IMG/VR virus record: IMGVR_UViG_3300032053_000039
Coordinates: 13,436-77,435 of that record
Direction: 5' to 3' (one strand)
DNA length: 64,000 nt
From: a virus
Positions within the stretch are counted from its first letter, which is position 1. The number at the start of each line of letters is the position of its first letter. The position numbers and the translations under genes are program-made. The notes beneath the pieces were generated by a model. It had not been told where the DNA came from and searched no databases. It saw nothing but the letters and a program-made list of their open reading frames with translations. Shown here in pieces: positions 2,069 through 38,954 of this stretch.

Positions 2069-3454
2069 TTACTTTATTTTAATATCCTTATATAACTCTC
2101 CTACGAATTGGGGATTTCCTTTAAAGAATTCTACCAGTTTATTCATACCTTGGAATGTCTCCCCTTTAGTTTTATAATAAGGACCTGCTCGCTCTATAAG
2201 ATTTTTTATAACTCCGAGAGATACTATCTCAGCAATATGATCTATTCCTATAGGGAAAGAAGTTCCCGGCCTGAAATAATAATCATAGGTGAACATGTCA
2301 CCAGGAGCATTAAGTTTGTTTTTATCAGCACGGATTCGTATTTTTTGACCATAGAAGTTGTCTTGAAATTTAGCTTCTGTTCCATCTTCCTTTAACCAGC
2401 ATTCTCTTTTCACTTCAATAATAGAAGCGCTATGATGCCCTACTGCATTTCCACCACTAAATGAATCAGGACCTGCGTGAAATGCTGTAAGGTTGGATCG
2501 TACCTGCGACAATATAAATAATGTTGGCTTGTATGCTTCTAATTCATCTTCCATATCGGTAGGTGCAAAAGAGGATACAACATACCGCATAAGCTTTCCA
2601 TTTGCTTTAGCCTCACTTCCCATATCAGCTTGACCTGCTTCTCTTTCTCGTATATAGCGAGGAACAGCTCCTTGAAGAGAATCCCAAACAACAATGTCAA
2701 CACCACGTTCCTTTATAATAGGTCTTAAAAGTTCTACACCTTCTTCAGTATCTTCTGGCTGCGCTACCATAAGCCTTTCTGGAATGATACCACAGGCTAT
2801 TAAATAATCCTGAGTTGCCATTTGTATCACTTCCTGTTCTTGTACAGTAAGCTTCTTGACCCATTTCTCTTTTTCTTTTACCATCTTTTTTTCATCATCA
2901 GAAAGAGTAACTTTCTCTTTAAGATCTTCTATTTCTGCTACAATGGTGTTGTAATCAAGTTCATCAACTTCTCGTTCTCCATAATCAGTGGTTTGAATTA
3001 TTCTTTTCACTTTTATTATTCGAGGATCTTCCATTTGTAAATTATCTTCATAATCCACAAACAATACTTTTTTAGGTTCTGGTTTTTTACATTCACATAC
3101 AGGAATAAGAAGCATATATTTTAATATAGCAGTCCATCGATCTTCTATAGAAGCTTCATAAAACTCAGGAAGAACACCTCGGCACACTCTACAACATCTT
3201 TGAGCAAACGCAGTTGTTTGATTGATCAAAGCGTTCTTACCACTCGAACGCGATCCAAAAATCATTATTATTCTTTTGTATGCAAATCCTCCTCCGGTGA
3301 GTTCATCTACAGAAAAAGATCCGGAAAAATATCTTTTAAGATATACTGACTTGGCTTTATCCAAAGTCGTTATCTTATTTGTTTTATACTTTTTATTTAT
3401 CTCTAAAATACTGGCTGGTAATTCAAACATAAAATCCTCCCTTATTTTGTCCAT
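2069..3454 (-). CDS. recA: RecA/UvsX-like recombinase with two insertions
   Basis: SGSFSVDELTGGG, P-loop GSRSSGKN, FVDYE, VWDSL, SQVR, SGGNAV, KNKLNAP. Confidence 0.9.
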   Translation of the reverse strand: MDKIREDFMFELPASILEINKKYKTNKITTLDKAKSVYLKRYFSGSFSVDELTGGGFAYKRIIMIFGSRSSGKNALINQTTAFAQRCCRVCRGVLPEFYEASIEDRWTAILKYMLLIPVCECKKPEPKKVLFVDYEDNLQMEDPRIIKVKRIIQTTDYGEREVDELDYNTIVAEIEDLKEKVTLSDDEKKMVKEKEKWVKKLTVQEQEVIQMATQDYLIACGIIPERLMVAQPEDTEEGVELLRPIIKERGVDIVVWDSLQGAVPRYIREREAGQADMGSEAKANGKLMRYVVSSFAPTDMEDELEAYKPTLFILSQVRSNLTAFHAGPDSFSGGNAVGHHSASIIEVKRECWLKEDGTEAKFQDNFYGQKIRIRADKNKLNAPGDMFTYDYYFRPGTSFPIGIDHIAEIVSLGVIKNLIERAGPYYKTKGETFQGMNKLVEFFKGNPQFVGELYKDIKIK

Positions 3455-6400
3455 ACTTCTTGAATATCTACATCCACCTTAAGTGGCATGGTTACTTTTG
3501 GAATATTCTCGGTCATACATTTTACAAATACAGGAGATAACTCCTCTACATACTTATCAGGGCTTTCTATTAAGATACTATCATGAATAGTTCCTACAAG
3601 CATTGTTCTATACTGAGGATTTTTTTCTATCCACTCCTGACATCTTGAAATTCCCATAGCGGTTATATCATTAGCAGAGCTTTGAATTTTTGTGTTTGTT
3701 GCCTGCCGCAGAGCTTTTCCTTTTTCTATATCATTACTACTAAGTGCTTTTGAAAGATATCTTTTTCTTCCATAAAGAGTTTCTACATATCCGTACTGCT
3801 GAACGAATATTTCGTTATCATGTATAAATTTTTTAACATTTGGATAGGTACTGAAGAATTTATTCATAAAGTTAAGCGCAGCTATCTCTGTTATTCCTAA
3901 ATCTTCTGCAAGAGATCGAGCCTGTAGACCAAAAATTATTCCAAAATTTATTGCTTTCGCTGAAGATCTTAATTTCTCATGTTCTGGTTTTTTCTTATCA
4001 AAAGAATCAAAAGGTACTCCAAACATTACACATGCAGTATAAGTATGAAAATCATGTCCGGATGCAAAAGCTTTTATCATACTAGTATCATCAGACATCA
4101 TTGCAAGAACACGAAGCTCTATCTGTGAATTATGACTTACAAACCCATTTGCTATGTAGCTGTGTGTTTCTTCTACTTCTATATCATATGTCTCAGCAGG
4201 GCTTATTTTTTTTATATTAGATATTTTACAATATACTTGGTTCCATTCTGATATTTTGTGTAATCCAAGATCTTTATATATTTCAGGGTAGTCTTTTTTT
4301 ATGAGATCAGAAGTATACTTGGATACAGATCCTTTCCTATTTCTAGTATTTTTTAATAAATTTATATTAGTATACTTTTTTGATTTATTTGTTAAATTAG
4401 GATGATTTCCATAAACAGGACTTGCATCAGAACTTTTAAGTATACTTAATAATTTTAATTTTTTTCTTTTACTAATAAATCCTATTTTTTCATAGAATAC
4501 TTTAGTCCAATGAGACTTTATATCAAGTATATATACTGTAAATTTATATCCCCGAATTTCATGGTTTTGTTTTCTCTTTTTAGCTATAATTCCTAAAGAT
4601 AATAATAATAAATGAACATCGTCTATTAATGATTCCTCAACAGAGGAACATCGAATTCTATCATCAACAGATCCATCAGTTTCAAAATATCCACGAAGCC
4701 AGGAAGATATTAAATCCTCGTTGGATTGAAAAAGAAAAGAAGGAACCCGTTTTTTAGATATACCCAAATTATTAAATACTTTTATTAAGGGCTTTGAATT
4801 AAAATTCATTGCAACAGCACCACGTCTCTCTTTGCATATACTACAAGATTCTCCAAATTGCTTGTGTAGTATATTCTCTATGTAATTTATAACATCTTTA
4901 TCTTTAACACAAATGTGCCATTGTATTGTTGTCTTTCGACAATTGCTTTCAAGAGTTGTACCATTACCACTAAGGACTCCAAAAAACTCACATAAAGAAT
5001 TATTTATAAAATTAGGATATTTTTTTAATATTTTATTACTAGCATGTGTATATTCTATTTTTGGCAAAGGTATCTTGTTTTTATTGTTTAAATGAAAGGG
5101 TTGTAATGCTATAAAATCATTTTCAAAATCTAAATTTTTTAAATTTTTCCAAACATAATTTCCATGAATATCTATAACACGAATTCTATGAAGATCTGTC
5201 ATTTTTATTTTATATCCTAGCTCCGTTGTAACCTCATATACTTCCTTAACACCTTGTTTAAAGACATTTAGTACTTTTTTTAGAGATCCATCCTCTTGAA
5301 TAACTTTTTCATTTTTTTTTAAATATTGTATTTCCTTAAGTCCTGTTTCTGTAGCAACTAGGGTATCTCCAACAAGGCATTGGTCCAAGCAAATAAGTTT
5401 ATTACCTCTTTCAGCACGAACCATATTTCTTATTTTATTATCTCTAGGTATTGTATGAAGAAAGCAGCTTGCTCTTCCTGTTGCTGTTAACTGATAATAA
5501 CTCGGGTGTACCCTATGAGTAAGTTTGTCTGCTTTATTCATAAAGCCCACTAAATATGTAGAGTTCTGTTTTGACAAAGTTCTGTATTCTAATATACTTT
5601 TCAATATCGGTTTTTGATTACTAAAGAATGTTATTGCTTCTTCATCTCCTGCAGGATTTCTACCCTTTTTAGTAACATAGTTTTTATTAGGCTCAAGACC
5701 TAAAACATTGTACATTAGGTTACTTATCTCTTTTGAAGAGTTAAGATTTAACTCGTATCCAACTTTATTAAATATCTTAATTTTTATCTTTTCGATCTCT
5801 TCTTTGTTTTGACGAGCTACCTTATCCATATATTTAAAGTCTAATCGTATTCCATTCAGAGTCATGTGTATTAAAGAATAGCAGTATTTCATAATAATAT
5901 TATAAAACACATCTCGATATTCTGAATCTATCTTAGGCTTCATTATCTTATAAAGTCTATAGGTAATATCAGAATCCATCGCTGAGTAATATTGCAAAGG
6001 AGTAAGATTTAATTCTTTTAACTTTTCTTTTCTTTTAGTTTCTATTTGGGTTCTTAATCCAAGAAGATACTTATCATATTCTGTAATAACCCCTTTTTCA
6101 GAAGATTCAAAATCATCTGGATTCCATAATTGCCCTTGTACTTCTACAGCATCTTCTTTAGCCTGATATTTTCCTATTCCTCCGAAAGATGCGAGGATGT
6201 CTTTATATCCTCCTTCGTTGGTCATTATCCAGGATAAAGTTTCCAGCTTATAAAGAGAATTTCCAACATCTCCTTCCGAACTCATATTTAAAGTATGGTA
6301 CGCTAACATTGTATCAAACAAAACTCCATTTACTTTGAATCCTAATTGCATAAGAAAACTCAAATCAAAGGAGATATTATGGCCAACTTTTTCATTATTG

Positions 6401-7194
6401 GAAGTCATACTCTTTCTAAAAAGATCTTCAAATTCGAGGATATTATTCCATTGTATGTGAACGCCTTGACCAACAGTATGACAAAAAGATATATCAGTTA
6501 TTTTATCTTCTCTGTGATTAAATCCCCGGGTTTCTAAGTCAAATGCAAAGGAAGGAACTTCTATAAGTTCTTCAAGATACTTTTTTATATCTACAGGATC
6601 TTCTAAAGTTCGAGCATTTGCTTTCATTTTTCTTTGTGGAGGAAGATCTATAATCTGTTTTGCCAGAATAAGATCATTTACAAAGTGTTGGTATAGTAAC
6701 CTATCTTGTGTTCTCATTAGATATGCTGGATGATATGTAGGAATAATTACTGTATCTAACTCAGGAAAATACATTTTTTTACCACGAGCACTTTCAATAG
6801 TTAGTCCTATCTTTATGAGTTGCTGAAGAGCTATCTTTCCGATTGTTATTATAACTTTCGGTTTCATTTTATTTATGAGTTCTATGGTAAATGCTCTACA
6901 ACAATCTATTTCTTTTGGAGTAGGAGTTCGATTATTTCCAGACTCGTCTATGGGATGACACCGAATTGCATTGCTGATAAAGCAATTTATACCTATCTGA
7001 TCTAAATAATGTTGAAGCATTTTTCCAGAAGCACCTACAAAGGGCATTCCCGCATCTGCTTCTGCCTGTCCTAAAGCTTCTCCAAGAAGAAGGACTCCCG
7101 AATTAATATCTCCTCTTCCAACAACATGAACACTCTTGGAAGTTCTCCACATGTTACATTTTTGGCAGAGATAGTTATTTGTAGTATATTCCAT
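3442..7194 (-). CDS. Family A DNA polymerase with N-terminal family-4 uracil-DNA glycosylase domain and 3'-5' exonuclease; intein in motif A
   Basis: UDG: CxxC, GEALG, PFVGASG, YHPAY. Exonuclease: FDLET, GHNISFD, YSAMD. Polymerase: D-Q|SQIELR, KAINFGIIFG, IHDS. Confidence 0.95.
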   Translation of the reverse strand: MEYTTNNYLCQKCNMWRTSKSVHVVGRGDINSGVLLLGEALGQAEADAGMPFVGASGKMLQHYLDQIGINCFISNAIRCHPIDESGNNRTPTPKEIDCCRAFTIELINKMKPKVIITIGKIALQQLIKIGLTIESARGKKMYFPELDTVIIPTYHPAYLMRTQDRLLYQHFVNDLILAKQIIDLPPQRKMKANARTLEDPVDIKKYLEELIEVPSFAFDLETRGFNHREDKITDISFCHTVGQGVHIQWNNILEFEDLFRKSMTSNNEKVGHNISFDLSFLMQLGFKVNGVLFDTMLAYHTLNMSSEGDVGNSLYKLETLSWIMTNEGGYKDILASFGGIGKYQAKEDAVEVQGQLWNPDDFESSEKGVITEYDKYLLGLRTQIETKRKEKLKELNLTPLQYYSAMDSDITYRLYKIMKPKIDSEYRDVFYNIIMKYCYSLIHMTLNGIRLDFKYMDKVARQNKEEIEKIKIKIFNKVGYELNLNSSKEISNLMYNVLGLEPNKNYVTKKGRNPAGDEEAITFFSNQKPILKSILEYRTLSKQNSTYLVGFMNKADKLTHRVHPSYYQLTATGRASCFLHTIPRDNKIRNMVRAERGNKLICLDQCLVGDTLVATETGLKEIQYLKKNEKVIQEDGSLKKVLNVFKQGVKEVYEVTTELGYKIKMTDLHRIRVIDIHGNYVWKNLKNLDFENDFIALQPFHLNNKNKIPLPKIEYTHASNKILKKYPNFINNSLCEFFGVLSGNGTTLESNCRKTTIQWHICVKDKDVINYIENILHKQFGESCSICKERRGAVAMNFNSKPLIKVFNNLGISKKRVPSFLFQSNEDLISSWLRGYFETDGSVDDRIRCSSVEESLIDDVHLLLLSLGIIAKKRKQNHEIRGYKFTVYILDIKSHWTKVFYEKIGFISKRKKLKLLSILKSSDASPVYGNHPNLTNKSKKYTNINLLKNTRNRKGSVSKYTSDLIKKDYPEIYKDLGLHKISEWNQVYCKISNIKKISPAETYDIEVEETHSYIANGFVSHNSQIELRVLAMMSDDTSMIKAFASGHDFHTYTACVMFGVPFDSFDKKKPEHEKLRSSAKAINFGIIFGLQARSLAEDLGITEIAALNFMNKFFSTYPNVKKFIHDNEIFVQQYGYVETLYGRKRYLSKALSSNDIEKGKALRQATNTKIQSSANDITAMGISRCQEWIEKNPQYRTMLVGTIHDSILIESPDKYVEELSPVFVKCMTENIPKVTMPLKVDVDIQEVWTK
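4129..5379 (-). mobile_element. LAGLIDADG-type intein in DNA polymerase motif A (417 aa)
   Basis: CLVGDT..., TDLH, WLRGYFETDG, ...VSHN|S; the exteins join to LDQ-SQIELR. Confidence 0.95.
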
Positions 7195-15490: not shown

Positions 15491-18400
15491 TTATCCGCAT
15501 TTAGAATACCCACATCCAATATCTGAACATTTGAGACAACCCTCAGAAAATCTTAATTTTGATCCACAGGTAGGACAAACTTCTTGAGCATCCAATCCAT
15601 CCTCTACATATTTTTTGAGTGTTCGAGCGAGGACTTTAGCAAAATGGGTTACATCACCTTCTGCCTTATTAAGCATTATAAGAACTTCATCCAGAGGAAC
15701 TCCTGATTGTAAATGCAAAGAGATGGATCGAGCAAAAGCATCATGCTCTTTATTATAAAAGGATTTCCCTATATTGTTTATAAGAACTTCGTCATCATAT
15801 TCAAAAGAATAATGTTTTGTTCCTTGCCTTTTAATAAATCCATCTTCTATTTTCTTAGGAATACAAACATCATCAACTGCTCCAGCAAACATTTCAAATG
15901 GTTTACCTTCCATAAGACTTACAAAAACAATCCATTTATGACCTTGATACATAACTCTGTGAATCTCGCAAGGAAGGGTAGGAGGCCTTTTTGGGATAGC
16001 TCTATAGACGATACCCTCTATTTTATCTTTTTTATCAGAATCGTGAATGAGTATTCCTTCTCTACATCCATCCCGATAGACAGTAACTCCAATAATTCCC
16101 CTTTTATGAGCATCTAAAAACACACCAGCTACATCTTCCTTAGTAGCATTACTAGGTAAATTAATAGTTTTACTTGCTGATAACGAAACATTAACTGCGG
16201 TAGCTTCTAAAATGCTTAGGTGTTCCATAGGTGTTAAATCTCCTGCGGTTAAAAATACTTTCTTCATATCATCTGGTATATCTTTACATTTCTGGCATGA
16301 GCCTTTATTTTCAGAAACCTCCTTAAGTATCTTTTGTTTTATTTTATCATCAAAATTATCAATGAGATATTTTTCAAATACAGAATCTCCAATACAAACA
16401 ACATCATATTGTTTTACTCCCTCTTTTATACCAGTTTCTATTTTACGTGAATAAGATAAAGCAAAGACGGGTTCGATTCCTCCAGATACTTCGGCGATGT
16501 ATGCAATACTTCCAGTTGGTGCTATAGAAGTGCAGCAACTATTTCTAATTCCGTGTTTTTTAATATCACTTCTAAGTTCTTCTATATTAATATTTCTACA
16601 GGATTTGTGTTTAAAAAATCTTTCGTTAGCCTTTATAAAAAGATCATAGTCAAACGCTTCATAGGATCCTTCTATTTTAGATAATTCTACAGATTCTTGC
16701 ATAGACCTTAAAGTAAGATAACGAATAACCTCTTCAGTAAATTTAAAAGCTTTATCAGAGTTATATGGTATTTCTTTTTTATAGAGAGCATGAGCAAGAC
16801 CCATAACACCAAGACCAATTGGTCGTGTTTTTAATGTAACTTCTTTTATTTTTTTTATAGGAAACTTATTTTTATCAATAGTGCTATTTATAAATCGAGT
16901 TGCTTTTACTATTATTTCTTCGAATTCATCCCAATTAAATTTTTTACCTTCAACTAAAGATGATAAGTTTATAGAACCAAGGGCGCAACTTGTATATGGA
17001 ATATTGGTAAATTCTGAGCAATTCGAGCATACAACATATTCTATACACTTTTTATTTTTTTTATTTAAATACTCTCTTCCGCCTATTAAAAAATTGTGTG
17101 TTTCCTCAACAGTACCATCGTATACATCTTCTTTACCAATATATTTTATTGATATTATTTTATGATTATAAGAATCCCCAATAGCTTTTTTTAATTCAAA
17201 TTTATGTTTATAATTTTTAATATTTTTTTCTGCTAAATATATTAAATCTTTAGCAAATCTTACTTTATTTATATTATCTTTCAAATAAGAAAGAGACGGA
17301 CAAAAAATATTATTATTCCGAATAACAGTTCTTGCTCCTTTATACTCTTTACCGAAATTAAGATAAGTATTACCAAGTTTTTTATAGGCTCTAAACATCT
17401 CTAAAGTTAATTTTAATCTTCTTTTGGTATTTGGATGGTCCAAATACTTTTTTGAAAATTTAGAATTTTCAAACATAAAAGGTTTTTGTATTTCTTTAAC
17501 ACAACAATAATGAGAACAAAATGTTATTTGCCTTCTATCATAGTCTACAATGAATTCCTTTCCACAATATTCACATTTTTTATATATTATAAAATTTAAA
17601 GATTTTTTATCAAATTTAAATATTTGTTCTCCGGACACCAGATTATTATACTGTTTCAAAAGTTTATTATATGTTATAGATTCTATATATTTAACTTTAG
17701 CAAGATCACAATATTCTTTAGGATTACTATATCTATATTTATTTCCTTTATTATTGGTATTTAAGAGAGGAAGATTTAAACTCTTCCACATTTGAAGAGT
17801 AAAGAAATTGTAAAGAGTATTTTTAGAGTATTTTTTTATTAACCTAACAATTTCTTCATTTGATATATTTTTAGAATTACTGTTTTTTAAACCTTGGTTT
17901 AATTCTCTTTGTTTTCTAATCCAGGAATCTCTATCTTTAATTTTAAATACTGGATTGTTTTTACCAAGTTTATCCTTTCCATGTAATTGGTCATGAGTTT
18001 TATAATCCATTATTTGTAAATTTTCTGGTCTGTTGTCTAGAGAGTCATAATTAATATGATGAACAACTTCTCCCTCAGAAAGTAATTTACCTGAAAAATA
18101 TGCTGCAATAAGTCTATGTTCTGATTTTGTAATTCCATTGGTGGTAATAGTACAATATTCTTTTTTCTTAGAAACGGATTTACTATAATTTTTTATTATG
18201 GATTTTATACTACTTCCTTTTTTTAAATCTTTTAATGGAACCATAACACCAGAGGTAGTTAAGAATTCATGATTATTTGTGCATTTTATAATCAAGCCAC
18301 TATCAAAAGAAACTTCATAAATATCAGCGTTTTTTTGTGTGAGTCTGGGATTTAAAAATTTCTTAATTCTCAAATCTCCTTGTTTATCTAAAGTATATAC

Positions 18401-20590
18401 AGGAACATCTTTTTCTTCATCTACTAGTTGCTTAATAGAAATAGAACCTCTTCCATCTGCGACTGCTATGAGAGTATCCCCTGTTATACATGGATTTGAG
18501 ATTACAGTTTTATTGATATTAGTAACAGTACACTGCCTATAAGCTATATCCATATTAAAAATTCCTGGTTCTGCGACCGACCAGGCATTTTCTACAATAG
18601 CATCCCACAACTGTTTTATTGTTACCATCTCCCCTTCTGAATCTAACAAAGCCATTGTGGCTCCATCTGTAACATTTTTTATAGTGTGAGGAATCTCTGG
18701 ATTTTCTTCCAAGTCTTTATAAAAGCTATCAGGAATCATTACAGAAAAATTAAGTCTATTGAATTTACTCAAATTCTTTTTTGCTTCTATAAATTCTAGT
18801 ATAGACGGATGATCTATTGTAAGGAGACCCATCGCAGCACCCCTGCGACTATTGTGAGTAACAATCCCATTAGCTATGTAAGAATGAACGTCTTCCACAT
18901 TTATATCATAGGTTTCATTTTCTCCAGTATCTTCTATTTTTACTACTTTACTAAAAAAGTAATCTCCAACTTCAGGAATAAGATTAAAAGCAAATTCTTT
19001 TTTCTCTTTTAAGTGCTGGTATGAAGATATACTAAAATTTCTTTCATTCCTAAAATATCTTTTTATCTCTTTTTTTAGTTTTTTATGACTTTCTGGTTTA
19101 TAATGATTTTTGTCTATTTCTTCTAAAACTTTAGAAAACCAATACCGAGGAAAGGGAAGAACATAGCTTTTTTCTCGAGTTAGATCACATTTCCAATTTT
19201 TACATTCCATGAAACGTGATTTTTCATCACAGCTTATAATCTTTTTCCAATTTTCTAATCCTACGTAAGATAGTATTTTTAAACTATGTATAAATTCTTC
19301 TTTGCTGAAACAATTTTTCCCATGTTTAGTTAAAAAAATACTATTTGGGCAACCCAGTTCAAATAAAATAGCAGATACTTCTTTTATGAGAACAAAAGAT
19401 GATGAGTTTAATTGAGGGTATCCATGACTAACTGAACCATCTGATTCAAAAAGACCTCTTAAATACATTCCTTTTATCGAAATAGGACTTTTTCTAATTA
19501 ATAAAGGAATTGACGCAGTATTACTTTTGCTTTTATTTAATTTATTTAAAATGAGAAATTCCTTTAATTTTTTATTCGATATAGTGATATTTACACAATC
19601 ACCTTTCCCTCTTTGAGTATAAAAAGATATATCTCCAAATACTTTTTTCAATTTTTTAGGAAAGTCTTCTACCAAATAACTTTTGAGGGGAATGGTAAAA
19701 ACAATTCTATAATCTTTTTCTTTTGATGCTACAGATCCATTTCCTGTAAGATATCCAAGAATAAATGCAAAATCTTCTGTTATTTCTTTAGGTAAGCTAA
19801 TATCATTTTCATTAAAATGATTATATCTAGACTCATCTAATTGTTGTAATTTTTGAATTACTCCATTTCCTGATTTTAATTTGATTACAGCAAAGTCTCC
19901 TTTTTTAACATCTTGAAGCTCTTTCCAAATGAATCCATTTTCTGAAAATATTTTTATTTTATGATTATATGTCCCTTCAAGCTCTATTCCTTCTTCTGTT
20001 ATAATTTTTAATGTGCTCGCAATACCGTTACAGTAAAATCCTTTAGAGTCTTTAATACCATTTTCGGTGTCTATTTTTATACTATGATCATGCCAACCAT
20101 AATCTCTATTGCTTATTATTTCATCTAAATATAATAAGCCTTCTTGAGTAGAGATAAGAGATCTTCCTATGAGACATCCTGACTGATTAACACCATCAAG
20201 CATTTCATTAAATATTGCTATAAAAGGGAGAGGTCCTGAGCTGGTTCTACCATTAAGGGTTTTAATTTCTTCTTTTGATCCTCGTAACCTAAAGTATGGA
20301 ATTCCTATTCCACCTCCCATCTTTGTAACAATAGCACATTCTTTTAATGATTCAAATATTCCCTCAATACTATCTTCTATATCCATAGGGAAGCACGAAC
20401 TAAGAGTTCCCACTCTTTCATTAGTCCCTCCGTTCATCAAAGTCGGAGATGAAGGAATAAATTTCATTTGTTCTAGGTATGGATAGATATCAGGATATAT
20501 TTTTGAGATTCGCTTAGCTAATTCCTCCCAGGTATTTTCACTTGATAGAAAATATCTATCTCTAAGCAATTTTACAATAGATTCATTCAT
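15491..20590 (-). CDS. nrdJ: Class II (B12-dependent) ribonucleotide reductase with two inteins
   Basis: PSSPTLMN, LSSCF, QSG|SRRGA, NP|CSE, CALGSINL, SIAPTG, GVTVYRDG; C-terminal TSCPD-like region and CPTCG..EGCLKC..CGYSKC. Confidence 0.93.
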   Translation of the reverse strand: MNESIVKLLRDRYFLSSENTWEELAKRISKIYPDIYPYLEQMKFIPSSPTLMNGGTNERVGTLSSCFPMDIEDSIEGIFESLKECAIVTKMGGGIGIPYFRLRGSKEEIKTLNGRTSSGPLPFIAIFNEMLDGVNQSGCLIGRSLISTQEGLLYLDEIISNRDYGWHDHSIKIDTENGIKDSKGFYCNGIASTLKIITEEGIELEGTYNHKIKIFSENGFIWKELQDVKKGDFAVIKLKSGNGVIQKLQQLDESRYNHFNENDISLPKEITEDFAFILGYLTGNGSVASKEKDYRIVFTIPLKSYLVEDFPKKLKKVFGDISFYTQRGKGDCVNITISNKKLKEFLILNKLNKSKSNTASIPLLIRKSPISIKGMYLRGLFESDGSVSHGYPQLNSSSFVLIKEVSAILFELGCPNSIFLTKHGKNCFSKEEFIHSLKILSYVGLENWKKIISCDEKSRFMECKNWKCDLTREKSYVLPFPRYWFSKVLEEIDKNHYKPESHKKLKKEIKRYFRNERNFSISSYQHLKEKKEFAFNLIPEVGDYFFSKVVKIEDTGENETYDINVEDVHSYIANGIVTHNSRRGAAMGLLTIDHPSILEFIEAKKNLSKFNRLNFSVMIPDSFYKDLEENPEIPHTIKNVTDGATMALLDSEGEMVTIKQLWDAIVENAWSVAEPGIFNMDIAYRQCTVTNINKTVISNPCITGDTLIAVADGRGSISIKQLVDEEKDVPVYTLDKQGDLRIKKFLNPRLTQKNADIYEVSFDSGLIIKCTNNHEFLTTSGVMVPLKDLKKGSSIKSIIKNYSKSVSKKKEYCTITTNGITKSEHRLIAAYFSGKLLSEGEVVHHINYDSLDNRPENLQIMDYKTHDQLHGKDKLGKNNPVFKIKDRDSWIRKQRELNQGLKNSNSKNISNEEIVRLIKKYSKNTLYNFFTLQMWKSLNLPLLNTNNKGNKYRYSNPKEYCDLAKVKYIESITYNKLLKQYNNLVSGEQIFKFDKKSLNFIIYKKCEYCGKEFIVDYDRRQITFCSHYCCVKEIQKPFMFENSKFSKKYLDHPNTKRRLKLTLEMFRAYKKLGNTYLNFGKEYKGARTVIRNNNIFCPSLSYLKDNINKVRFAKDLIYLAEKNIKNYKHKFELKKAIGDSYNHKIISIKYIGKEDVYDGTVEETHNFLIGGREYLNKKNKKCIEYVVCSNCSEFTNIPYTSCALGSINLSSLVEGKKFNWDEFEEIIVKATRFINSTIDKNKFPIKKIKEVTLKTRPIGLGVMGLAHALYKKEIPYNSDKAFKFTEEVIRYLTLRSMQESVELSKIEGSYEAFDYDLFIKANERFFKHKSCRNINIEELRSDIKKHGIRNSCCTSIAPTGSIAYIAEVSGGIEPVFALSYSRKIETGIKEGVKQYDVVCIGDSVFEKYLIDNFDDKIKQKILKEVSENKGSCQKCKDIPDDMKKVFLTAGDLTPMEHLSILEATAVNVSLSASKTINLPSNATKEDVAGVFLDAHKRGIIGVTVYRDGCREGILIHDSDKKDKIEGIVYRAIPKRPPTLPCEIHRVMYQGHKWIVFVSLMEGKPFEMFAGAVDDVCIPKKIEDGFIKRQGTKHYSFEYDDEVLINNIGKSFYNKEHDAFARSISLHLQSGVPLDEVLIMLNKAEGDVTHFAKVLARTLKKYVEDGLDAQEVCPTCGSKLRFSEGCLKCSDIGCGYSKCG
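17021..18490 (-). mobile_element. HNH-type intein at the RNR active-site NPC motif (490 aa)
   Basis: CITGDT..., CTNNHEF, EHRL...VHHINYDSLDNRPENL, ...VCSN|C. Confidence 0.92.
18851..20176 (-). mobile_element. LAGLIDADG-type intein in RNR (442 aa)
   Basis: CLIGRS..., GTYNH, YLRGLFESDG, ...VTHN|S. Confidence 0.93.
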
Positions 20591-34672: not shown

Positions 34673-35697
34673 TTAATTTTCTCCCTTATTTCAAGTTTCT
34701 CCAGTATTTCAAGGTTAATTATATCTAATCCCTTAAGTATCCCTGATTTTGAAGAATTAAGAACGTATCTATGTGATACTTTAATCAAAGATAAGAGGAG
34801 CATAGCATAGTAACTAAATAATTTAGAGGTATAATAATCATTTTCTGTGTGAGGATCAAAGTACTTAAGTTCTTTTTTTACTTCATATTTTATAACTTCT
34901 TTTTTAGAAATTCCTAAGGCACGAGCTCTTCTTTCAAGATAGTCCTTACAATAATATTTTTTATGAGTATATGCTAGATCGTATCCTGATAAAATAATAC
35001 AACTAGGATCAAGAAGAACCGATATTATAAACATTGCATTTCCGACCCATCCGTTATTTTGGACATAAGGGTACTTTCTTGTCTTCCATGTCATTTTCTT
35101 TAGTACTAAATTTTTATATCGAATAGTATCTGATTGATTAAAAAATAATATTTTTCCTTTCCAGGCTTTTAGTGCTTCGGGGTTTAGTGTCGAAGATGCA
35201 ACTAGTATTAAATCAGAAGTATCTAGATCATGCCAAAAGAATTTAATTAGTATTGATGGATCTAAAGATACTACAAGATTTGGTTTTATTTTATTTTTTA
35301 GACAATTATAAAGAACGGCATCTTGACAGATTATATAAAAATTGTGGGTCATTTTTTTAATAACCTTTATATCTTTATCAAGAGAAGGTCCATCTGCAAG
35401 AAGAATAACTGGTATGTTTCTTGATAATCTTTTCTTTAAGATTTCCAAAGAATCAACCCTTGTTGTTATTTTAAATATTCCTAATTTTAAATTTTCTGTG
35501 TAATTATCTCTCCATGTTTTTATAAAAGGATCTTTCTTTACCAATTCTATTTCTTTGGGTATTGATCTTATTTCTTTTATACAGGAATAAATTAATTTTA
35601 TACATTTTAATAAATAAAAAATAAAATTTATTCCAAACAGCTTAAGATACTTTATAGTTTTTTTGAAATATCTTTCCAATCTATTAAAGAACCACAT
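34669..35697 (-). CDS. Maf/DUF115 (MptE-like) family protein, putative glycosyltransferase
   Basis: ILLADGPSLDKDI, IICQDAV, VVSLDP, ILSGYDLAY. Confidence 0.7.
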   Translation of the reverse strand: MWFFNRLERYFKKTIKYLKLFGINFIFYLLKCIKLIYSCIKEIRSIPKEIELVKKDPFIKTWRDNYTENLKLGIFKITTRVDSLEILKKRLSRNIPVILLADGPSLDKDIKVIKKMTHNFYIICQDAVLYNCLKNKIKPNLVVSLDPSILIKFFWHDLDTSDLILVASSTLNPEALKAWKGKILFFNQSDTIRYKNLVLKKMTWKTRKYPYVQNNGWVGNAMFIISVLLDPSCIILSGYDLAYTHKKYYCKDYLERRARALGISKKEVIKYEVKKELKYFDPHTENDYYTSKLFSYYAMLLLSLIKVSHRYVLNSSKSGILKGLDIINLEILEKLEIREKIK

Positions 35698-36158
35698 TTA
35701 GAACACTCCATAGTCCAAGCATCAATGATATTACTGCAGCTACATGTATAATCCCAATTTAGATATTCTGTACCCATACCCTCTCTAACTTTCTTATATT
35801 TCGTAGGTGTAGCTAATTTAATTTCTTTTTTATCGGAAGAAAGACCTGGCTTTTTTATTTGTTTTAAATTTTCTACAACAGCATTAAAATATTTTAACGA
35901 ATGCGTTTTAACTAATCCTTTTTCCCAATCTTCTTTAAAATATTTTACACATTCTACAAGTCTATCTTTACCTACTTTTTCTACCAACATTGATATATTT
36001 GTTATCTTGTCCTGTTTCGTTATTTTTTTCTCTGCACCTTCTCTTTTAAATTTAGTATAATCGAAAAATGAATTATAAAATCTACAAACAATATCTCCAT
36101 CTTCCCTTCCAAATGTTTTATGACAAAACTCTCTAAATCCTTCGAATACCTCTCTCAT
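35652..36158 (-). CDS. Paralog of the replication initiator C-terminal domain with zinc ribbon
   Basis: KYF...YTCSC...CSKCGSLIDW versus the initiator's KYF...YVCKC...CSVCGTEVDY. Confidence 0.6.
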   Translation of the reverse strand: MREVFEGFREFCHKTFGREDGDIVCRFYNSFFDYTKFKREGAEKKITKQDKITNISMLVEKVGKDRLVECVKYFKEDWEKGLVKTHSLKYFNAVVENLKQIKKPGLSSDKKEIKLATPTKYKKVREGMGTEYLNWDYTCSCSNIIDAWTMECSKCGSLIDWKDISKKL

Positions 36159-37342
36159 GAATAAATCCTCTCACCTTCTTGTGTTACTAAATAGTCTACC
36201 TCCGTTCCACACACAGAACAGAATCTTAAATCATCATGAAGTTGTGTTTTATGACCACATTTACAAACATATACATAATTATCTTCAACAGGTTCTAAAT
36301 GAGATGTGTCTTCAGGTACATTTCTTAGCAGGGCCTCTAGAAAATACTTAGGGGTTATCTTTCTTGAACAGATTCCAAGTGCAATGCTTCCTTCGATGGT
36401 TTCTATAGCTTCAAGTACTTTACTCAAAGTGAATCTATTTATCCAAGTTTCTAAAGATTCTAATCGAATAATATTTTTTTCAATTTTAGATTGTTTCCCG
36501 TACACCTCTATCCGTTGTAAAATATTAATTATCCTGTTGCTATTCTTAATTAAATCATTATAATATATAGGTATACATCCATTGTTTTTATCTATTAAAA
36601 ATTGAATAAGTCCCGCCGAGGTCAATTCTTTTAAACTTTCCTGAGTCCTTTCTTCTCTTAACTCTTCTAAGGAGTTCTCTTTCTCCCCCTCTTCTCTTTT
36701 AGGAATTCCTAAAGAGTTATCTTCCTGATGTTTTTTTTCTTCCCCAAAAAAAAGATCTGTAGTAATCTCTGTAGTATTCTCTGTAGTAATCTTTGTATAT
36801 GTATTACAGATTTCCGTAGGAGGGTCATACGGATTTCCGTATGAGGGTGGTACAGATTCTCGTAGGGGGGTGGTACGGATTTTTGTATGACCCCCCTTTT
36901 CGATATGATTATAAGTTATTTCAGTTATTCTTTCAACATTAGGTTCTACAAACATTACATTATAGAGCATTGTGTTTTTTACAAGTACTTGTCTAAATTC
37001 TACAGAAATAAGATTTAAACGTACTAATGTCTCAAATGAATCACGGACTTGCCTTTTGCTAGATCCAGTTAATTCAGCGTAATCACTATAGCTTTTCTGA
37101 AGTTTATCAGAATTGAATTTTTTTGATATTGATGCGATATCATCGGTTTGAGGATCTCTTGTGGTTGTAGGAGTATACCAATATCTAATATTGGCTAGTA
37201 TATACGCAGCTAAGAAATCAGTAACTTTTTTTCCTTTAGTTGTTGTATATGTAATTGCTTTTAACCAAGAAGGAGGTAGAATATCACCGGATATATTTAA
37301 TTTTCCAATAGCATCTACAGTAGGTGTTGTATTTTTTATCAT
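36155..37342 (-). CDS. Phage replication initiator (lambda O/DnaD-like architecture) with internal iterons
   Basis: N-terminal winged helix (ILANIRYWY...LQKSYSDYAE), linker with iterons, TKITTENTTEITT signature, C-terminal helical domain plus zinc ribbon. Confidence 0.8.
   Translation of the reverse strand: MIKNTTPTVDAIGKLNISGDILPPSWLKAITYTTTKGKKVTDFLAAYILANIRYWYTPTTTRDPQTDDIASISKKFNSDKLQKSYSDYAELTGSSKRQVRDSFETLVRLNLISVEFRQVLVKNTMLYNVMFVEPNVERITEITYNHIEKGGHTKIRTTPLRESVPPSYGNPYDPPTEICNTYTKITTENTTEITTDLFFGEEKKHQEDNSLGIPKREEGEKENSLEELREERTQESLKELTSAGLIQFLIDKNNGCIPIYYNDLIKNSNRIINILQRIEVYGKQSKIEKNIIRLESLETWINRFTLSKVLEAIETIEGSIALGICSRKITPKYFLEALLRNVPEDTSHLEPVEDNYVYVCKCGHKTQLHDDLRFCSVCGTEVDYLVTQEGERIYS
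36805..36896. repeat. Four 23-bp direct repeats (iterons); putative origin of replication
   Basis: Copies start at 36805, 36828, 36851 and 36874; core TAC(A/G)GATT(T/C)(C/T)(C/T)GTA is palindromic (TACGGA-TT-TCCGTA). Confidence 0.8.
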
Positions 37343-37533
37343 GAGTTCCTCTCGAGTTCATATGTTATATTTTTTATTTTTTCAGGGTTTGGTTTAACAA
37401 ACATCACATTATAGAGTACTCCTCCTTTAATTTTTATATTTTTAAATTCTAATTTTACAATATCTAGAGATTCTAACGTATTAAATGATTCTCGAATTTG
37501 CTTTTTACTGAAATTTAATAATGAGGACAGGAT
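37339..37533 (-). other. Truncated paralog of the initiator winged-helix region (leader ORF or pseudogene; no canonical start near the 5' end)
   Basis: ILSSLLNFSKKQIRESFNTLESLDIVKLEFKNIKIKGGVLYNVMFVKPNPEKIKNITYELERNS* aligns to the initiator's SKRQVRDSFETL...LYNVMFVEPNVERITEITY; ATGA overlap with the initiator start. Confidence 0.7.
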
Positions 37534-37538
37534 AAAAT

Positions 37539-37634
37539 AAAAAACCTCCAGAAAGTACCACCTGTTTCCAGGTTCTGCTCGGTATTTCTGAAGGTTGAGG
37601 GCTATTACACCCTTAGATATGAGCAGAAAAACCT
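37539..37634 (-). ncRNA. Putative c4/CI-like antisense-attenuator RNA upstream of the initiator
   Basis: Stem AACCTTCAGAAATACC/GGTACTTTCTGGAGGTT enclosing GAGCAGA and ACCTG-GAAA-CAGGT, followed by a U tract; upstream complementary TTCTGCTC. Confidence 0.55.
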
Positions 37635-37985
37635 AAGAGTACAATAACGATATTACAAATTGTGAAATTTTATGTTTCTTATTCTTAAATACTAAAATAA
37701 GAGCTGTTTCGTCGGAATATTATAGATAGAGCGGTTTTAATTTTGGGTTCGATTCTGTTTTAGTCATTATTTAATCTAATATGGTTCATCTATCTATGTT
37801 TTATATAGCAGGACGCTATTTTATAATAAATATCTGTCAATAGAATTTTTTTAAGTCCCCTGAAAAATATTCAGGAATGAACTTAAACTTACCTTTTCAG
37901 GTTAAAATTTTAATCAAATTTCATATAATTATATTAAACGCAATTATACATTTAATCAACATTTAATAAATACGAGGTTCTTATC

Positions 37986-38954
37986 ATGGCAGAAGTAGTG
38001 AAAATAAATTCTAAAAAGGGTCTGGTTTCACTTACCCAGAAAGATATAGCCGAAAACGACTTGGCTTCCTGGTTGAGAACAAACTCTAAAGGTTTCGGTC
38101 ATTATTCTTTTATTAATCAACAACCCTTTGAAAGGGTAGCAGCAAAACTTTTTGTGGATAAATATCCTTCTACACATGTGAAGATAGCAGAAAGTATTGT
38201 ATGTACAAAAGAAGGAGGTGTTGATGTATTTCTTAAAATCACAGATGATCAATCTCGAGGATTTTATAACACTCATCCCACAAAGCTTGTATTCAATAAA
38301 GGAAAACAAACCGTTATTGATGATATCACAAAACATGGATCAGAAGAAGGAGTTTTGGATGTTATAGAGGATGATGACTTGAAAGAAGACTTCGAAGATA
38401 ATTCTTCTGATTATGAAGAATCTGCGGATGAGGAATTCTATGGTGAGATTGAAAATTTTCTTAGTGAAATAAAAAGTCTTTCTGAAGAAGATCTTATTAA
38501 AAAAGTATCTCCAGAAGAACTTGAAGAGATAAGTAAAATGTTAGATCTTGATAATAAATCAGAATACGAAGAAGACGAAGATTCTGAAAAGGAAGATTTG
38601 AAGGATGAAGATTTGGATGATATAGATATTGATTTAGAAGAAGAGGGAGACGAGAAAGAAGATGAAGAGGAAGAAGACGATTATGAGTATGAGGACGAAG
38701 AGGAGATTGGTGAGGATGAAAACGAGAAGGAAGATGATGATAATGACAACAATGATATCGAATTTGAGGAAGGCTTTATCGAATCTAAAGGGGATGATGG
38801 GATTCTTAAAGAAGTTAATCTCGAGGATTTCTCTGAAGATAAAGGGCCTGAAATAATTGAGATAGAAGGAAAGATTCCAGAAGAAAAAGGATCAATCGAA
38901 AAAGTTCCCTCTGATAAAATTCTCAGAGATTTAATAAAAGAAATTTTGGGGTAA
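37986..38954 (+). CDS. Highly acidic hypothetical virion-associated protein
   Basis: D/E-rich C-terminal half; first gene of the plus-strand head module. Confidence 0.65.
   Translation: MAEVVKINSKKGLVSLTQKDIAENDLASWLRTNSKGFGHYSFINQQPFERVAAKLFVDKYPSTHVKIAESIVCTKEGGVDVFLKITDDQSRGFYNTHPTKLVFNKGKQTVIDDITKHGSEEGVLDVIEDDDLKEDFEDNSSDYEESADEEFYGEIENFLSEIKSLSEEDLIKKVSPEELEEISKMLDLDNKSEYEEDEDSEKEDLKDEDLDDIDIDLEEEGDEKEDEEEEDDYEYEDEEEIGEDENEKEDDDNDNNDIEFEEGFIESKGDDGILKEVNLEDFSEDKGPEIIEIEGKIPEEKGSIEKVPSDKILRDLIKEILG

What the first reader, a model, noticed from the sequence alone, without database searches (positions are those of the whole stretch)
37539..37634. c4/CI-like antisense-attenuator RNA with a GNRA loop, sequestering a GGAGG
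Seen: on the minus strand a ~16-bp stem (37596-37581 with 37559-37543) encloses a single-stranded GAGCAGA and an ACCTG-GAAA-CAGGT hairpin and ends in a U tract. About 40 nt upstream is the exact complement TTCTGCTC (37628-37621), which allows alternative pairing. The 3' arm contains GGAGG 11-14 nt before ATC/CTG codons in frame with the initiator-fragment ORF. Known: P1/P7 c4 and P4 CI RNAs use loop-target pairing to cause termination and control a coupled leader ORF (icd/kil). Inference: an analogous RNA switch controls replication initiation in a large phage.
Basis: partly seen in the sequence, partly recalled or inferred. Interest (0 to 1): 0.7.

Follow-up and report, generated by a model that had tools for sequence, protein, structure and literature searches.

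The report
Kissing-hairpin terminator leader before phage rep
In front of its DNA-replication genes this large uncultured sediment phage has a two-hairpin RNA that ends in the strongest transcription-stop signal of the window; the tip of the first hairpin matches a bulge in the stop hairpin, so it is probably an RNA gate on replication-gene expression, and it is not a relative of the P1 c4 or P4 CI RNAs.

Summary
On the minus strand, P1 (37648-37601, 18 bp, 12-nt loop) is followed 4 nt later by P2 (37596-37543: 16-bp outer stem, 7-nt bulge GAGCAGA, 5-bp stem with a GNRA loop) and a U tract (37544-37532). The P1 loop carries UUCUGCUC, the exact complement of the bulge.

The fold is strand-specific (-42.9 against -26.7 kcal/mol). 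P2 is the strongest hairpin plus T-tract in all 64 kb. The only close relative (L004, Rep 85% identical) keeps the element at 96.6% identity against 84-91% in the flanks. All four substitutions preserve the structure, including GAAA to GCAA.

- No Rfam family matches, C4 included.
- The GGAGG is not conserved (GAAGG in L004).
- The "initiator-fragment ORF" is a 5'-deleted copy of a 137-aa paralog of the Rep N-terminal domain, which is intact in L004 with its own ribosome site.

Among distant Rep relatives, about 15 distinct leaders carry a terminator just before rep. Their unpaired interiors match an upstream box more often than shuffled controls do (combined p about 4e-5). Two of them are true loop-loop kissing pairs.

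Best reading: a cis-acting leader attenuator tuned by a kissing contact. Earlier unchecked notes of this scan describe similar leaders in other phages. There are no RNA data and no two-sided covariation for this element itself.

The parts
37813..37840 (-). Promoter-like site P_left: TTGACA (37840-37835), 16-nt spacer, TAGCGT (37818-37813), with an A-tract upstream.
   Evidence: Read. The TTGACA-N16-TAttGT-CC block is conserved in L004 and also in L005, whose Rep is only 51% identical. The window's -10 hexamer is weak (3 of 6), so the consensus scan did not call it. The transcription start has not been shown.
37649..37812 (-). 5' part of the leader. It is non-coding.
   Evidence: It is 90.6% identical to L004. 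A 34-codon frame that is open in L004 is cut by a TAA at codon 10 in the window and has no ribosome site.
37601..37648 (-). Hairpin P1: an 18-bp stem (5 G.U pairs) and a 12-nt loop UUUUCUGCUCAU (37630-37619). The box UUCUGCUC is at 37628-37621.
   Evidence: Folds (-16.7 kcal/mol on its own). There is one substitution against L004, G.U to A-U at 37632.
37543..37596 (-). Hairpin P2 (terminator hairpin): a 16-bp outer stem, a 7-nt 5' bulge GAGCAGA (37580-37574), and an inner 5-bp stem with the GNRA loop GAAA (37568-37565).
   Evidence: -24.8 kcal/mol, the strongest hairpin plus T-tract in the window. There are three substitutions against L004, all compatible with the structure: A-U to G.U at 37573, GAAA to GCAA at 37567, and U.G to U-A at 37548.
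37532..37544 (-). U tract UUUUUUAUUUUAU directly after P2. The first two U pair with the AA at the base of P2.
   Evidence: It is identical in L004. There is no matching T run on the plus strand, so the terminator is one-directional.
37523..37531 (-). Deletion scar: 9 nt in the window stand where L004-type genomes have 271 nt.
   Evidence: Contigs of runs X12 and X13 bridge 37522/37532 with 271 letters in between. The alignment with L004 shows the same.
37339..37522 (-). 5'-truncated remnant of a 137-aa paralog of the Rep N-terminal domain. Its TGA (37341-37339) overlaps the rep ATG. An internal site AAAGGAGGAG (37428-37419) with GTG/ATG at 37407/37404 could give a 21-22-codon upstream ORF.
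   Evidence: The best local alignment to the intact L004 ORF is 58% identical over 86 aligned positions, E = 4e-30. The intact ORF is 40% identical to Rep residues 9-144, E = 1e-29.
36155..37342 (-). rep: a 395-aa replication initiator of the DnaD-like / phage O-like kind. It is the first complete gene behind the leader.
   Evidence: phrog_270 (2.3e-10) and phrog_678. Homologs are named DnaD-domain proteins.
36756..36896 (.). Iterons inside rep (three 12-bp units, then four 23-bp dyad units). This is the probable origin that Rep binds.
   Evidence: This is the least conserved part of rep against L004 (83.3%).

Best explanation
P1-P2 is a cis-acting leader RNA (an attenuator) at the head of the leftward replication operon.

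Proposed mechanism:
1. Transcription starts either at the conserved TTGACA-N16-TAGCGT site about 200 nt upstream, or at a weaker site just before P1.
2. The RNA first forms P1, then P2.
3. P2 with its U tract is an intrinsic terminator. It stops a fraction of polymerases about 190 nt before rep. In the undeleted relative it stops them 22 nt before the ribosome site of a small Rep-N-domain paralog.
4. The P1 loop (UUCUGCUC) and the P2 bulge (GAGCAGA, plus one more base) form a 7-8-bp kissing helix.
5. This contact sets how efficiently the terminator forms. The most likely direction is that it hinders completion of the long outer stem and so favours read-through, as the kissing loop does in the guanidine-IV riboswitch.
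6. Anything that occupies the P1 loop (a trans RNA, a protein, or nothing at all) would then tune how much Rep mRNA is made, and how much transcription crosses the origin inside rep.

Shown: the structure, its strand specificity, the terminator-like anatomy, the position, the conservation, and the recurrence of the layout in other leaders of this Rep family.

Inferred: that termination happens, that the kissing helix forms, which way it acts, and what regulates it.
For: - The fold is significant and strand-specific.
- P2 is the strongest hairpin plus T-tract of the 64-kb window. The phage also has a canonical terminator after the gene that ends at 59063, so intrinsic terminators appear to be in use.
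- Position: the element lies between a promoter-like block conserved in three lineages and the first gene of the rep operon.
- The box and the bulge are both unpaired in the MFE, and both fall exactly in a loop and a bulge. Shuffle p = 0.001. The isolated duplex is -13 kcal/mol.
- Against L004, P1-P2 is 96.6% identical, the leader 5' part 90.6% and the paralog remnant 84.4%.
- All 46 proposed pairs are standard in both sequences. The three stem substitutions are G.U/A-U swaps, and the loop stays GNRA.
- Independent recurrence: in 15 distinct terminator-bearing leaders in front of Rep-N-domain genes, the unpaired interior of the terminator matches an upstream box more often than shuffles do. 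Fisher combined p = 3.6e-5 for all 15. Without the window my hand calculation from the same table gives about 9e-4.
- L062 (7 nt) and L092 (8 nt) are loop-to-loop pairs between an upstream hairpin and the terminator tip. L072 (9 nt) uses an internal loop of the terminator.
- Precedent for a kissing loop that blocks completion of a terminator stem: guanidine-IV (PMC11611296).
Against: - No RNA data exist. The transcription start, the 3' end at the U tract and termination itself are not shown.
- Only two closely related haplotypes carry this exact element, so there is no two-sided covariation.
- The next relative, L005 (Rep 51% identical), keeps the promoter but has an unrelated leader.
- The window's -10 hexamer is poor (3 of 6).
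- The nested alternative helix is 18 kcal/mol worse than the MFE. Any switch must therefore be kinetic or tertiary, and I cannot compute that.
- P1 (18 bp) and the P2 outer stem (16 bp) are about equally long, so the kissing helix might coexist with a complete terminator. The direction of the effect is therefore open.
- The class-level statistic rests on predicted hairpins and mononucleotide shuffles.
Confidence: 0.55

Rival explanations
1. Plain terminator or small-RNA gene. P2 simply ends a short non-coding transcript from P_left, or insulates the rep operon. P1 is a stability hairpin, and the 8-nt complement is only a folding contact or an accident. rep would then be transcribed from a separate promoter downstream of P2.
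For: P2 has the anatomy of an efficient terminator. A perfect TATAAT lies at about 37413-37408 inside the paralog remnant. In a two-sequence comparison, conservation cannot separate a regulated terminator from an unregulated one.
Against: That TATAAT sits on the conserved LYNVM codons and has no good -35; the scan did not call it. The box/bulge complement has p = 0.001, and the same layout recurs with other sequences in unrelated leaders of this Rep family. In L004 the terminator ends 22 nt before the ribosome site of the first gene, which is the usual geometry of an attenuator.
Confidence: 0.17
2. Countertranscript-driven attenuation as in pT181 and pIP501. An antisense RNA made from the plus strand of the leader would bind the P1 loop and push the nascent rep leader into the terminator form.
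For: The replicon context is the same: a rep leader with a terminator just before the first gene. In pIP501, RNAIII induces premature termination in the repR leader through loop-loop contacts (PMC4981023). An antisense copy of P2 would carry the same sequence as the P1 box, so it could compete for the bulge.
Against: No plus-strand promoter plus terminator pair brackets P1-P2. The only plus-strand promoter-like site nearby (37433-37461) lies inside the paralog coding region and is about 300 nt further from P2 in L004. No plus-strand hairpin plus T-tract lies between 37600 and 37800. The plus strand folds far worse.
Confidence: 0.1
3. c4/CI-like processed antisense RNA. The element would be cut out of the leader and act through its loops on target boxes, hiding a ribosome site and causing termination of a coupled leader ORF.
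For: Self-complementary boxes within one leader are formally like seqA/seqB of P4 and a'/a2 of P1. The C4 RNA blocks expression of the downstream icd-ant genes of its own operon (PMC8198154).
Against: There is no Rfam C4-type hit at E up to 10. There is no further copy of either box near any ribosome site in the window; the only other GAGCAGAA is inside a late gene at 58225. The GGAGG is not conserved and is not the ribosome site of any gene. The "leader ORF" is a deletion remnant.
Confidence: 0.05
4. RNase III processing or stability site. Two long helices with an asymmetric bulge would be cut to set the 5' end and half-life of the rep mRNA, as at phage T7 early processing sites (from my own knowledge).
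For: P1 is an 18-bp helix, and P2's 16-bp outer and 5-bp inner stems stack into 21 bp with a one-sided bulge.
Against: This does not explain the U tract, the GNRA loop, or the exact loop-bulge complement and its recurrence in other leaders.
Confidence: 0.06
5. DNA-level element: an operator, or a single-strand initiation site or cruciform that belongs to the origin.
For: It lies beside rep, and the origin iterons are 650-800 bp away.
Against: Six G.U pairs make the structure much weaker on the other strand (-26.7 against -42.9 kcal/mol). No iteron motif occurs in P1-P2. The substitutions are G.U/A-U swaps, which matter for RNA pairing and not for a protein-bound duplex.
Confidence: 0.04

Closest known systems
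Guanidine-IV (mepA-motif) riboswitch
   Same: It has two hairpins in a 5' leader. A kissing-loop contact between them competes with completion of an intrinsic terminator stem, and the decision is made during transcription (PMC11611296).
   Different: No Rfam match. Here the second hairpin is the whole terminator and the receptor is a bulge, not an apical loop. The helix is 7-8 Watson-Crick pairs, long enough to form without a ligand. The genes controlled are phage replication genes, not exporters. No ligand is implied.
Antisense-RNA transcription attenuators in plasmid rep leaders (pIP501 RNAIII/repR; pT181 and pAMbeta1 from my own knowledge)
   Same: A terminator in the leader just before the replication-initiator gene. 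RNA loop-loop pairing decides between termination and read-through. The replicon style is Bacillota-like (PMC4981023).
   Different: No countertranscript promoter or terminator was found. Both complementary boxes lie on the same RNA. The host element is a phage, not a plasmid.
IncI-alpha/IncB rep mRNA pseudoknot (ColIb-P9 repZ; from my own knowledge and named in earlier scan notes)
   Same: A hairpin loop in a rep leader pairs with a distant downstream single strand of the same RNA, and this controls initiator synthesis.
   Different: That pseudoknot activates translation at the rep ribosome site and is opposed by an antisense Inc RNA. Here the partner is a bulge inside a terminator, about 190 nt from rep in the window.
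P1/P7 c4 RNA and P4 CI RNA (Rfam C4 family)
   Same: A phage leader RNA with short boxes complementary to other boxes in the same transcript, controlling downstream genes (PMC8198154).
   Different: No sequence or structure match to the family. No target at a ribosome site. No sign of processing. It controls a replication operon rather than an antirepressor or immunity operon.
Kissing-loop leader RNAs before phage replication genes, noted earlier in this scan (for example e1-5348570, e1-5888263, e1-6070689; unpublished AI notes)
   Same: Promoter, first hairpin, terminator hairpin, replication genes, with the first hairpin's loop complementary to an exposed part of the terminator hairpin. Absent from Rfam.
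   Different: I could not compare sequences with those families. Here the receptor is a 5' bulge rather than the tip, and the host lineage is a sediment phage with a Bacillota-like Rep rather than a gut or rumen Bacteroidota phage.

Membership tests
Rfam C4 antisense RNA (P1/P7 c4, P4 CI, IsrK-like) and the c4-2 / c4-a1b1 motifs | Match to the family covariance model | tested here: not met
   cmscan with permissive filters, E up to 10, over 36800-38400 on both strands gave no C4-type hit. The same was true for L004 and four analogous leaders.
Rfam C4 antisense RNA (P1/P7 c4, P4 CI) | Antisense loops complementary to target boxes that overlap the ribosome site of the next gene in the same transcript | tested here: not met
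   The two boxes pair with each other. No further copy lies near a ribosome site. The GGAGG in the 3' arm is GAAGG in L004 and serves no gene.
Rfam C4 antisense RNA (P1/P7 c4, P4 CI) | Processing of the leader into a stable small RNA | not testable with these tools
   No RNA run holds this DNA.
Intrinsic (Rho-independent) terminator / leader attenuator | Stable hairpin with G-C pairs near its base, followed directly by a U tract, on the transcribed strand | tested here: met
   -24.8 kcal/mol. The base of the stem is A-U, A-U, C-G, C-G, followed by six U, one A and four U. It ranks first of 60 candidates in the window.
Intrinsic (Rho-independent) terminator / leader attenuator | Location between a promoter and the first gene of the operon | tested here: met
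   It lies downstream of a promoter-like block conserved in three lineages. In L004 it ends 22 nt before the ribosome site of the first gene. The promoter itself is only predicted.
Intrinsic (Rho-independent) terminator / leader attenuator | RNA 3' ends at the U tract and regulated read-through | not testable with these tools
   No RNA holders are listed.
Guanidine-IV riboswitch | Match to the family model (conserved loop nucleotides that bind guanidine) | tested here: not met
   No Rfam hit of any riboswitch class.
pT181 / pIP501-type countertranscript attenuator | Antisense promoter and terminator within the leader that give a countertranscript | tested here: not met
   No plus-strand promoter-terminator pair brackets P1-P2. 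These are consensus scans only, so a non-consensus promoter is not excluded.
Kissing-loop terminator leaders of phage replication genes (class noted by this scan, not published) | Upstream hairpin loop complementary to an unpaired part of a terminator hairpin just before a replication gene | tested here: met
   Window: 8 nt, loop to bulge, p = 0.001. The same layout occurs in L062, L092 and L072 in front of homologous Rep genes.
Kissing-loop terminator leaders of phage replication genes (class noted by this scan, not published) | Pairing kept by compensatory changes among relatives | tested here: inconclusive
   Only two haplotypes exist and the 7 box pairs are invariant. Different box sequences in analogous but non-alignable leaders give support only at the level of the layout.

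The most novel reading that the evidence does not exclude
The element belongs to a widespread, uncatalogued class of self-contained RNA gates in front of replication-initiator genes of phages and prophages. In this class an upstream hairpin loop kisses an exposed loop or bulge of the leader terminator and so sets read-through. This one would be a variant with a bulge as receptor. The class would be the phage counterpart of plasmid copy-control RNAs, with both partners on one transcript.
Probability: 0.45. Interest if true: 0.7.

Novelty: new variant of a known kind. Interest (0 to 1): 0.55.

Why it matters
How lytic and large phages dose their replication initiator is mostly unknown. For plasmids, RNA-based control of rep is textbook knowledge. 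A compact leader with both pairing partners on one RNA, recurring with different sequences in front of related Rep genes, would be a simple and testable control module for phage replication timing. It would also be a candidate new RNA family for Rfam. In addition it offers a natural example of a long Watson-Crick kissing contact acting on a terminator, which is useful for understanding, and for building, transcriptional RNA switches. For this window it also clarifies the annotation: the "fragment ORF" is a deletion remnant of a stand-alone Rep DNA-binding-domain paralog, not a leader peptide gene.

Tried and rejected
The other contigs that hold the identical Rep (P0001; longest contig 127,857 bases) and the contigs of P0004 and P0005 could not be fetched.
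- **RNA evidence.** No RNA holder is listed for this DNA, so nothing can be said about expression.
- **Read laying on four DNA runs** gave no new haplotype. X12 and X13 are L004-type and X10 and X11 are window-type fragments.
- **Searches for more copies of the element** found nothing: the exact and degenerate P2 and P1-P2 patterns in viral contigs and in genome contigs; phage GenBank records by blastn; covariance model R1 on the phage's own record (a single copy) and on 80 viral loci (only one weak hit, on the strand opposite the rep match and overlapping it).
- **Close Rep relatives in IMG/VR:** none. The small-paralog query and the single-protein queries from L066 and L072 found either nothing or only themselves.
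- **L005 leader.** No significant similarity to P1-P2. My impression that its last hairpin resembles the base of P2 did not survive a shuffle test. Its 63-aa ORF is not significantly like the paralog (E = 1.9).
- **Nested antiterminator reading.** Rejected on energy: -25.0 against -42.9 kcal/mol.
- **Leader-peptide attenuation** (prompted by the weak Phe_leader hit). Rejected: the only upstream frame is broken in the window and has no ribosome site.
- **Promoter directly before P1.** L004 has a TATAAT there and the window has TGTAAT, both with a poor -35. This remains undecided.
- **Literature.** Two full-text searches found no paper on kissing-loop terminator leaders before phage replication genes.

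Full report
**Context.** The window is bases 13436-77435 of a 77.4-kb IMG/VR viral contig that CheckV rates 32% complete, so the phage is large. It is AT-rich, with 69% A+T. A leftward arm carries replication and nucleotide-metabolism genes: DNA polymerase, ribonucleotide reductase, an SbcC-like protein and Rep. A rightward arm carries structural genes, including the portal. The finding lies in the 643-bp divergent gap (37343-37985) between the two arms, on the strand of the replication arm. The first complete gene behind it is a 395-aa initiator (36155-37342; phrog_270 and phrog_678, with DnaD-like relatives). Iterons lie inside its own coding sequence at 36756-36896.

**The observation.** The picture has one more piece. 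The upstream complement UUCUGCUC is not free leader sequence. It sits in the 12-nt apical loop of an 18-bp hairpin, P1 (37648-37601), which ends 4 nt before the terminator hairpin P2 (37596-37543). P2 has a 16-bp outer stem, a one-sided 7-nt bulge GAGCAGA, and a 5-bp inner stem capped by GAAA. It is followed by UUUUUUAUUUUAU.

**Is it more than chance?**
- The 111-nt fold has z = -3.7, and 0 of 200 shuffles fold as well.
- The 126-nt element folds at -42.9 kcal/mol on the minus strand and -26.7 on the plus strand, because it holds six G.U pairs. This points to an RNA of the minus strand and away from a duplex-DNA signal.
- In a scan of both strands of the whole window for hairpins that abut a T tract, P2 ranks first at -24.8 kcal/mol. 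A textbook terminator after the late gene that ends at 59063 also appears, so such terminators appear to be used in this genome.

**Relatives.** The one metagenome scan gave two loci: L004 (Rep 85% identical) and L005 (Rep 51%).
- L004 keeps P1-P2 at 96.6% identity. The 5' leader is 90.6% identical, the sequence just downstream 84.4%, and rep 83-93%.
- The four substitutions are G.U to A-U in P1, A-U to G.U in the inner stem, U.G to U-A in the outer stem, and GAAA to GCAA in the tetraloop. All 46 proposed pairs stay standard and the loop stays GNRA. This fits selection on the fold, but with two sequences there is no two-sided covariation.
- L005 keeps the divergent promoter block, including TTGACA-N16-TATTGT with an upstream A tract. 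Its leader is unrelated in sequence.
- Contigs from sediment metagenomes showed only the same two haplotypes.

**What lies downstream.** In L004 the terminator is followed after 22 nt by a ribosome site and an intact 137-aa ORF (L004 430-843). This ORF is a paralog of the Rep N-terminal DNA-binding domain (40% identity to Rep residues 9-144, E = 1e-29). In the window 271 nt of that gene are replaced by 9 nt (37523-37531), which removes the ribosome site, the ATG and about 90 codons.

The open frame that runs back through the hairpin is an accident of the scar, so the ATC/CTG "starts" and the "sequestered GGAGG" fall away. The GGAGG is GAAGG in L004 and serves no gene. The remnant has since acquired AAAGGAGGAG before an in-frame GTG/ATG, and it has lost its stop, so it now ends in an ATGA overlap with rep. 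That might act as a short coupled upstream ORF, but this is a side issue.

**Family membership.** A permissive Rfam scan found nothing of the C4 kind and no riboswitch. The top hit, Phe_leader at E = 0.38, only reflects a hairpin-plus-terminator shape. L004 and four analogous leaders are equally blank. The element is not a member of the c4/CI family. There is no third box at any ribosome site.

**How the two boxes could act.** Forcing them into an ordinary nested helix gives -25.0 kcal/mol against -42.9 for P1 plus P2, so this is not a classic antiterminator stem. Both boxes are unpaired in the MFE, one in a loop and one in a bulge, and the isolated duplex is worth -13 kcal/mol. The natural reading is a kissing or pseudoknot contact. 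The chance of finding 8 nt or more of complement between the unpaired interior of P2 and the 110 nt upstream is 0.001 by shuffling.

**Recurrence in the Rep family.** With a broader alignment of the Rep N-domain I fetched 80 viral and 80 genomic loci.
- Most rep genes sit inside operons.
- About 15 distinct leaders have a hairpin plus U tract just before rep.
- Across these, the unpaired interior of the terminator matches an upstream box more often than shuffled controls do. Fisher combined p = 3.6e-5. Without the window my hand calculation from the same table gives about 9e-4.
- In L062 a 6-bp hairpin with loop GUGAGAG faces a terminator whose 7-nt tip is CUCUCAC. In L092 a hairpin with a 12-nt loop carries GGUCUCAC, and the terminator tip carries GUGAGACC. 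In L072 a 9-nt box matches an internal loop of the terminator. In L066 a 10-nt box pairs with the loop and inner stem, and the MFE there is the antiterminated form.
- The box sequences all differ. What recurs is the layout, not the sequence.

Earlier unchecked notes of this scan report the same layout, with covariation, in front of replication genes of other phage groups. I treat that as a lead. My own test above agrees with it.

**Mechanism.** I commit to a leader attenuator. P2 terminates part of the transcription that enters the replication operon, and the P1-loop/P2-bulge helix sets the fraction. By analogy with guanidine-IV, where a kissing loop hinders completion of the terminator stem and a short linker makes the two structures sterically exclusive (PMC11611296), I favour the contact as read-through-promoting. 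The 4-nt P1-P2 linker and the 16-bp outer stem make it plausible that a closed kissing complex cannot be wound into a full terminator while the 3' end is still held by the polymerase. This step is inference. Because P1 and the P2 outer stem are nearly the same length, the two helices could also lie side by side with the contact formed, and in that case it would stabilise the terminator.

Whether anything titrates the P1 loop is unknown. I found no countertranscript signals of the pIP501 kind (PMC4981023). Because the origin lies inside rep, the gate would control both Rep synthesis and transcription across the origin.

**Novelty and score.** I found no paper on such leaders in front of phage replication genes, and Rfam has no family for them. 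The principles are known: a leader terminator, a kissing loop, and RNA control of rep. I therefore rate this a new variant of a known kind. The element itself rests on two haplotypes and on predictions, which keeps the score moderate.

Noticed in passing
window 36756-36896: Two iteron sets lie inside the rep coding sequence: three 12-bp units, then four 23-bp units with an internal dyad. This is probably the origin. It is the least conserved part of rep against L004 (83%), as expected if Rep and its sites co-evolve.
   Followed up: partly
window 37339-37531; L004 430-843: A stand-alone 137-aa paralog of the Rep DNA-binding domain sits between the leader and rep in L004-type genomes. In the window lineage it is 5'-deleted (271 nt replaced by 9 nt). 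Both forms occur in sediment metagenomes, so the paralog is dispensable. It might be a regulator that binds the iterons.
   Followed up: partly
window 37339-37428: The paralog remnant has gained a strong ribosome site (AAAGGAGGAG), an ATG-TGA start-stop, and an in-frame GTG/ATG. It has lost its stop, so a 21-22-codon frame now ends in an ATGA overlap with rep. This is a possible new coupled upstream ORF.
   Followed up: no
window 35652-36158: The 168-aa ORF after rep shares only a CxC...CxxC zinc-ribbon-like stretch with the Rep C-terminus (E = 0.029).
   Followed up: partly
L092 1-180: In a Tenacibaculum MAG contig, the Rep relative with a kissing-loop leader starts right after the 3' part of a tRNA gene (Rfam tRNA, E = 8e-4). 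This looks like an integrated element at a tRNA site, with the leader beginning a few bases after the tRNA.
   Followed up: partly
L072 559-1992: Here the initiator is split into an N-domain-only gene of 141 aa and an adjacent 335-aa gene. It sits behind a promoter, a 9-nt box and a terminator with the complementary internal loop.
   Followed up: no
L122, L125, L129, L132, L140 at about 748-804: A family of Bacillaceae prophage rep genes has a 45-50-nt hairpin plus seven U that ends 8 nt before the ATG. The ribosome-site-like GAAGGGTGGA lies in the 3' arm, so terminator and ribosome-site masking appear combined. No upstream complementary box was found.
   Followed up: no
L036 about 1385-1480: Two direct repeats of about 32 nt lie just upstream of a rep relative. 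They may be operators or iterons.
   Followed up: no
window 15491-20590 and 3442-7194: The ribonucleotide reductase large subunit (1699 aa) and the DNA polymerase (1250 aa) are over-long and carry HNH-endonuclease or unrelated inserts in their PHROG matches. This suggests inteins.
   Followed up: no
window 37902-37929 (+): A TTAAAA-N16-TATAAT promoter-like site for the rightward (structural) arm lies in a block that is 96.9% identical to L004 and also conserved in L005.
   Followed up: partly
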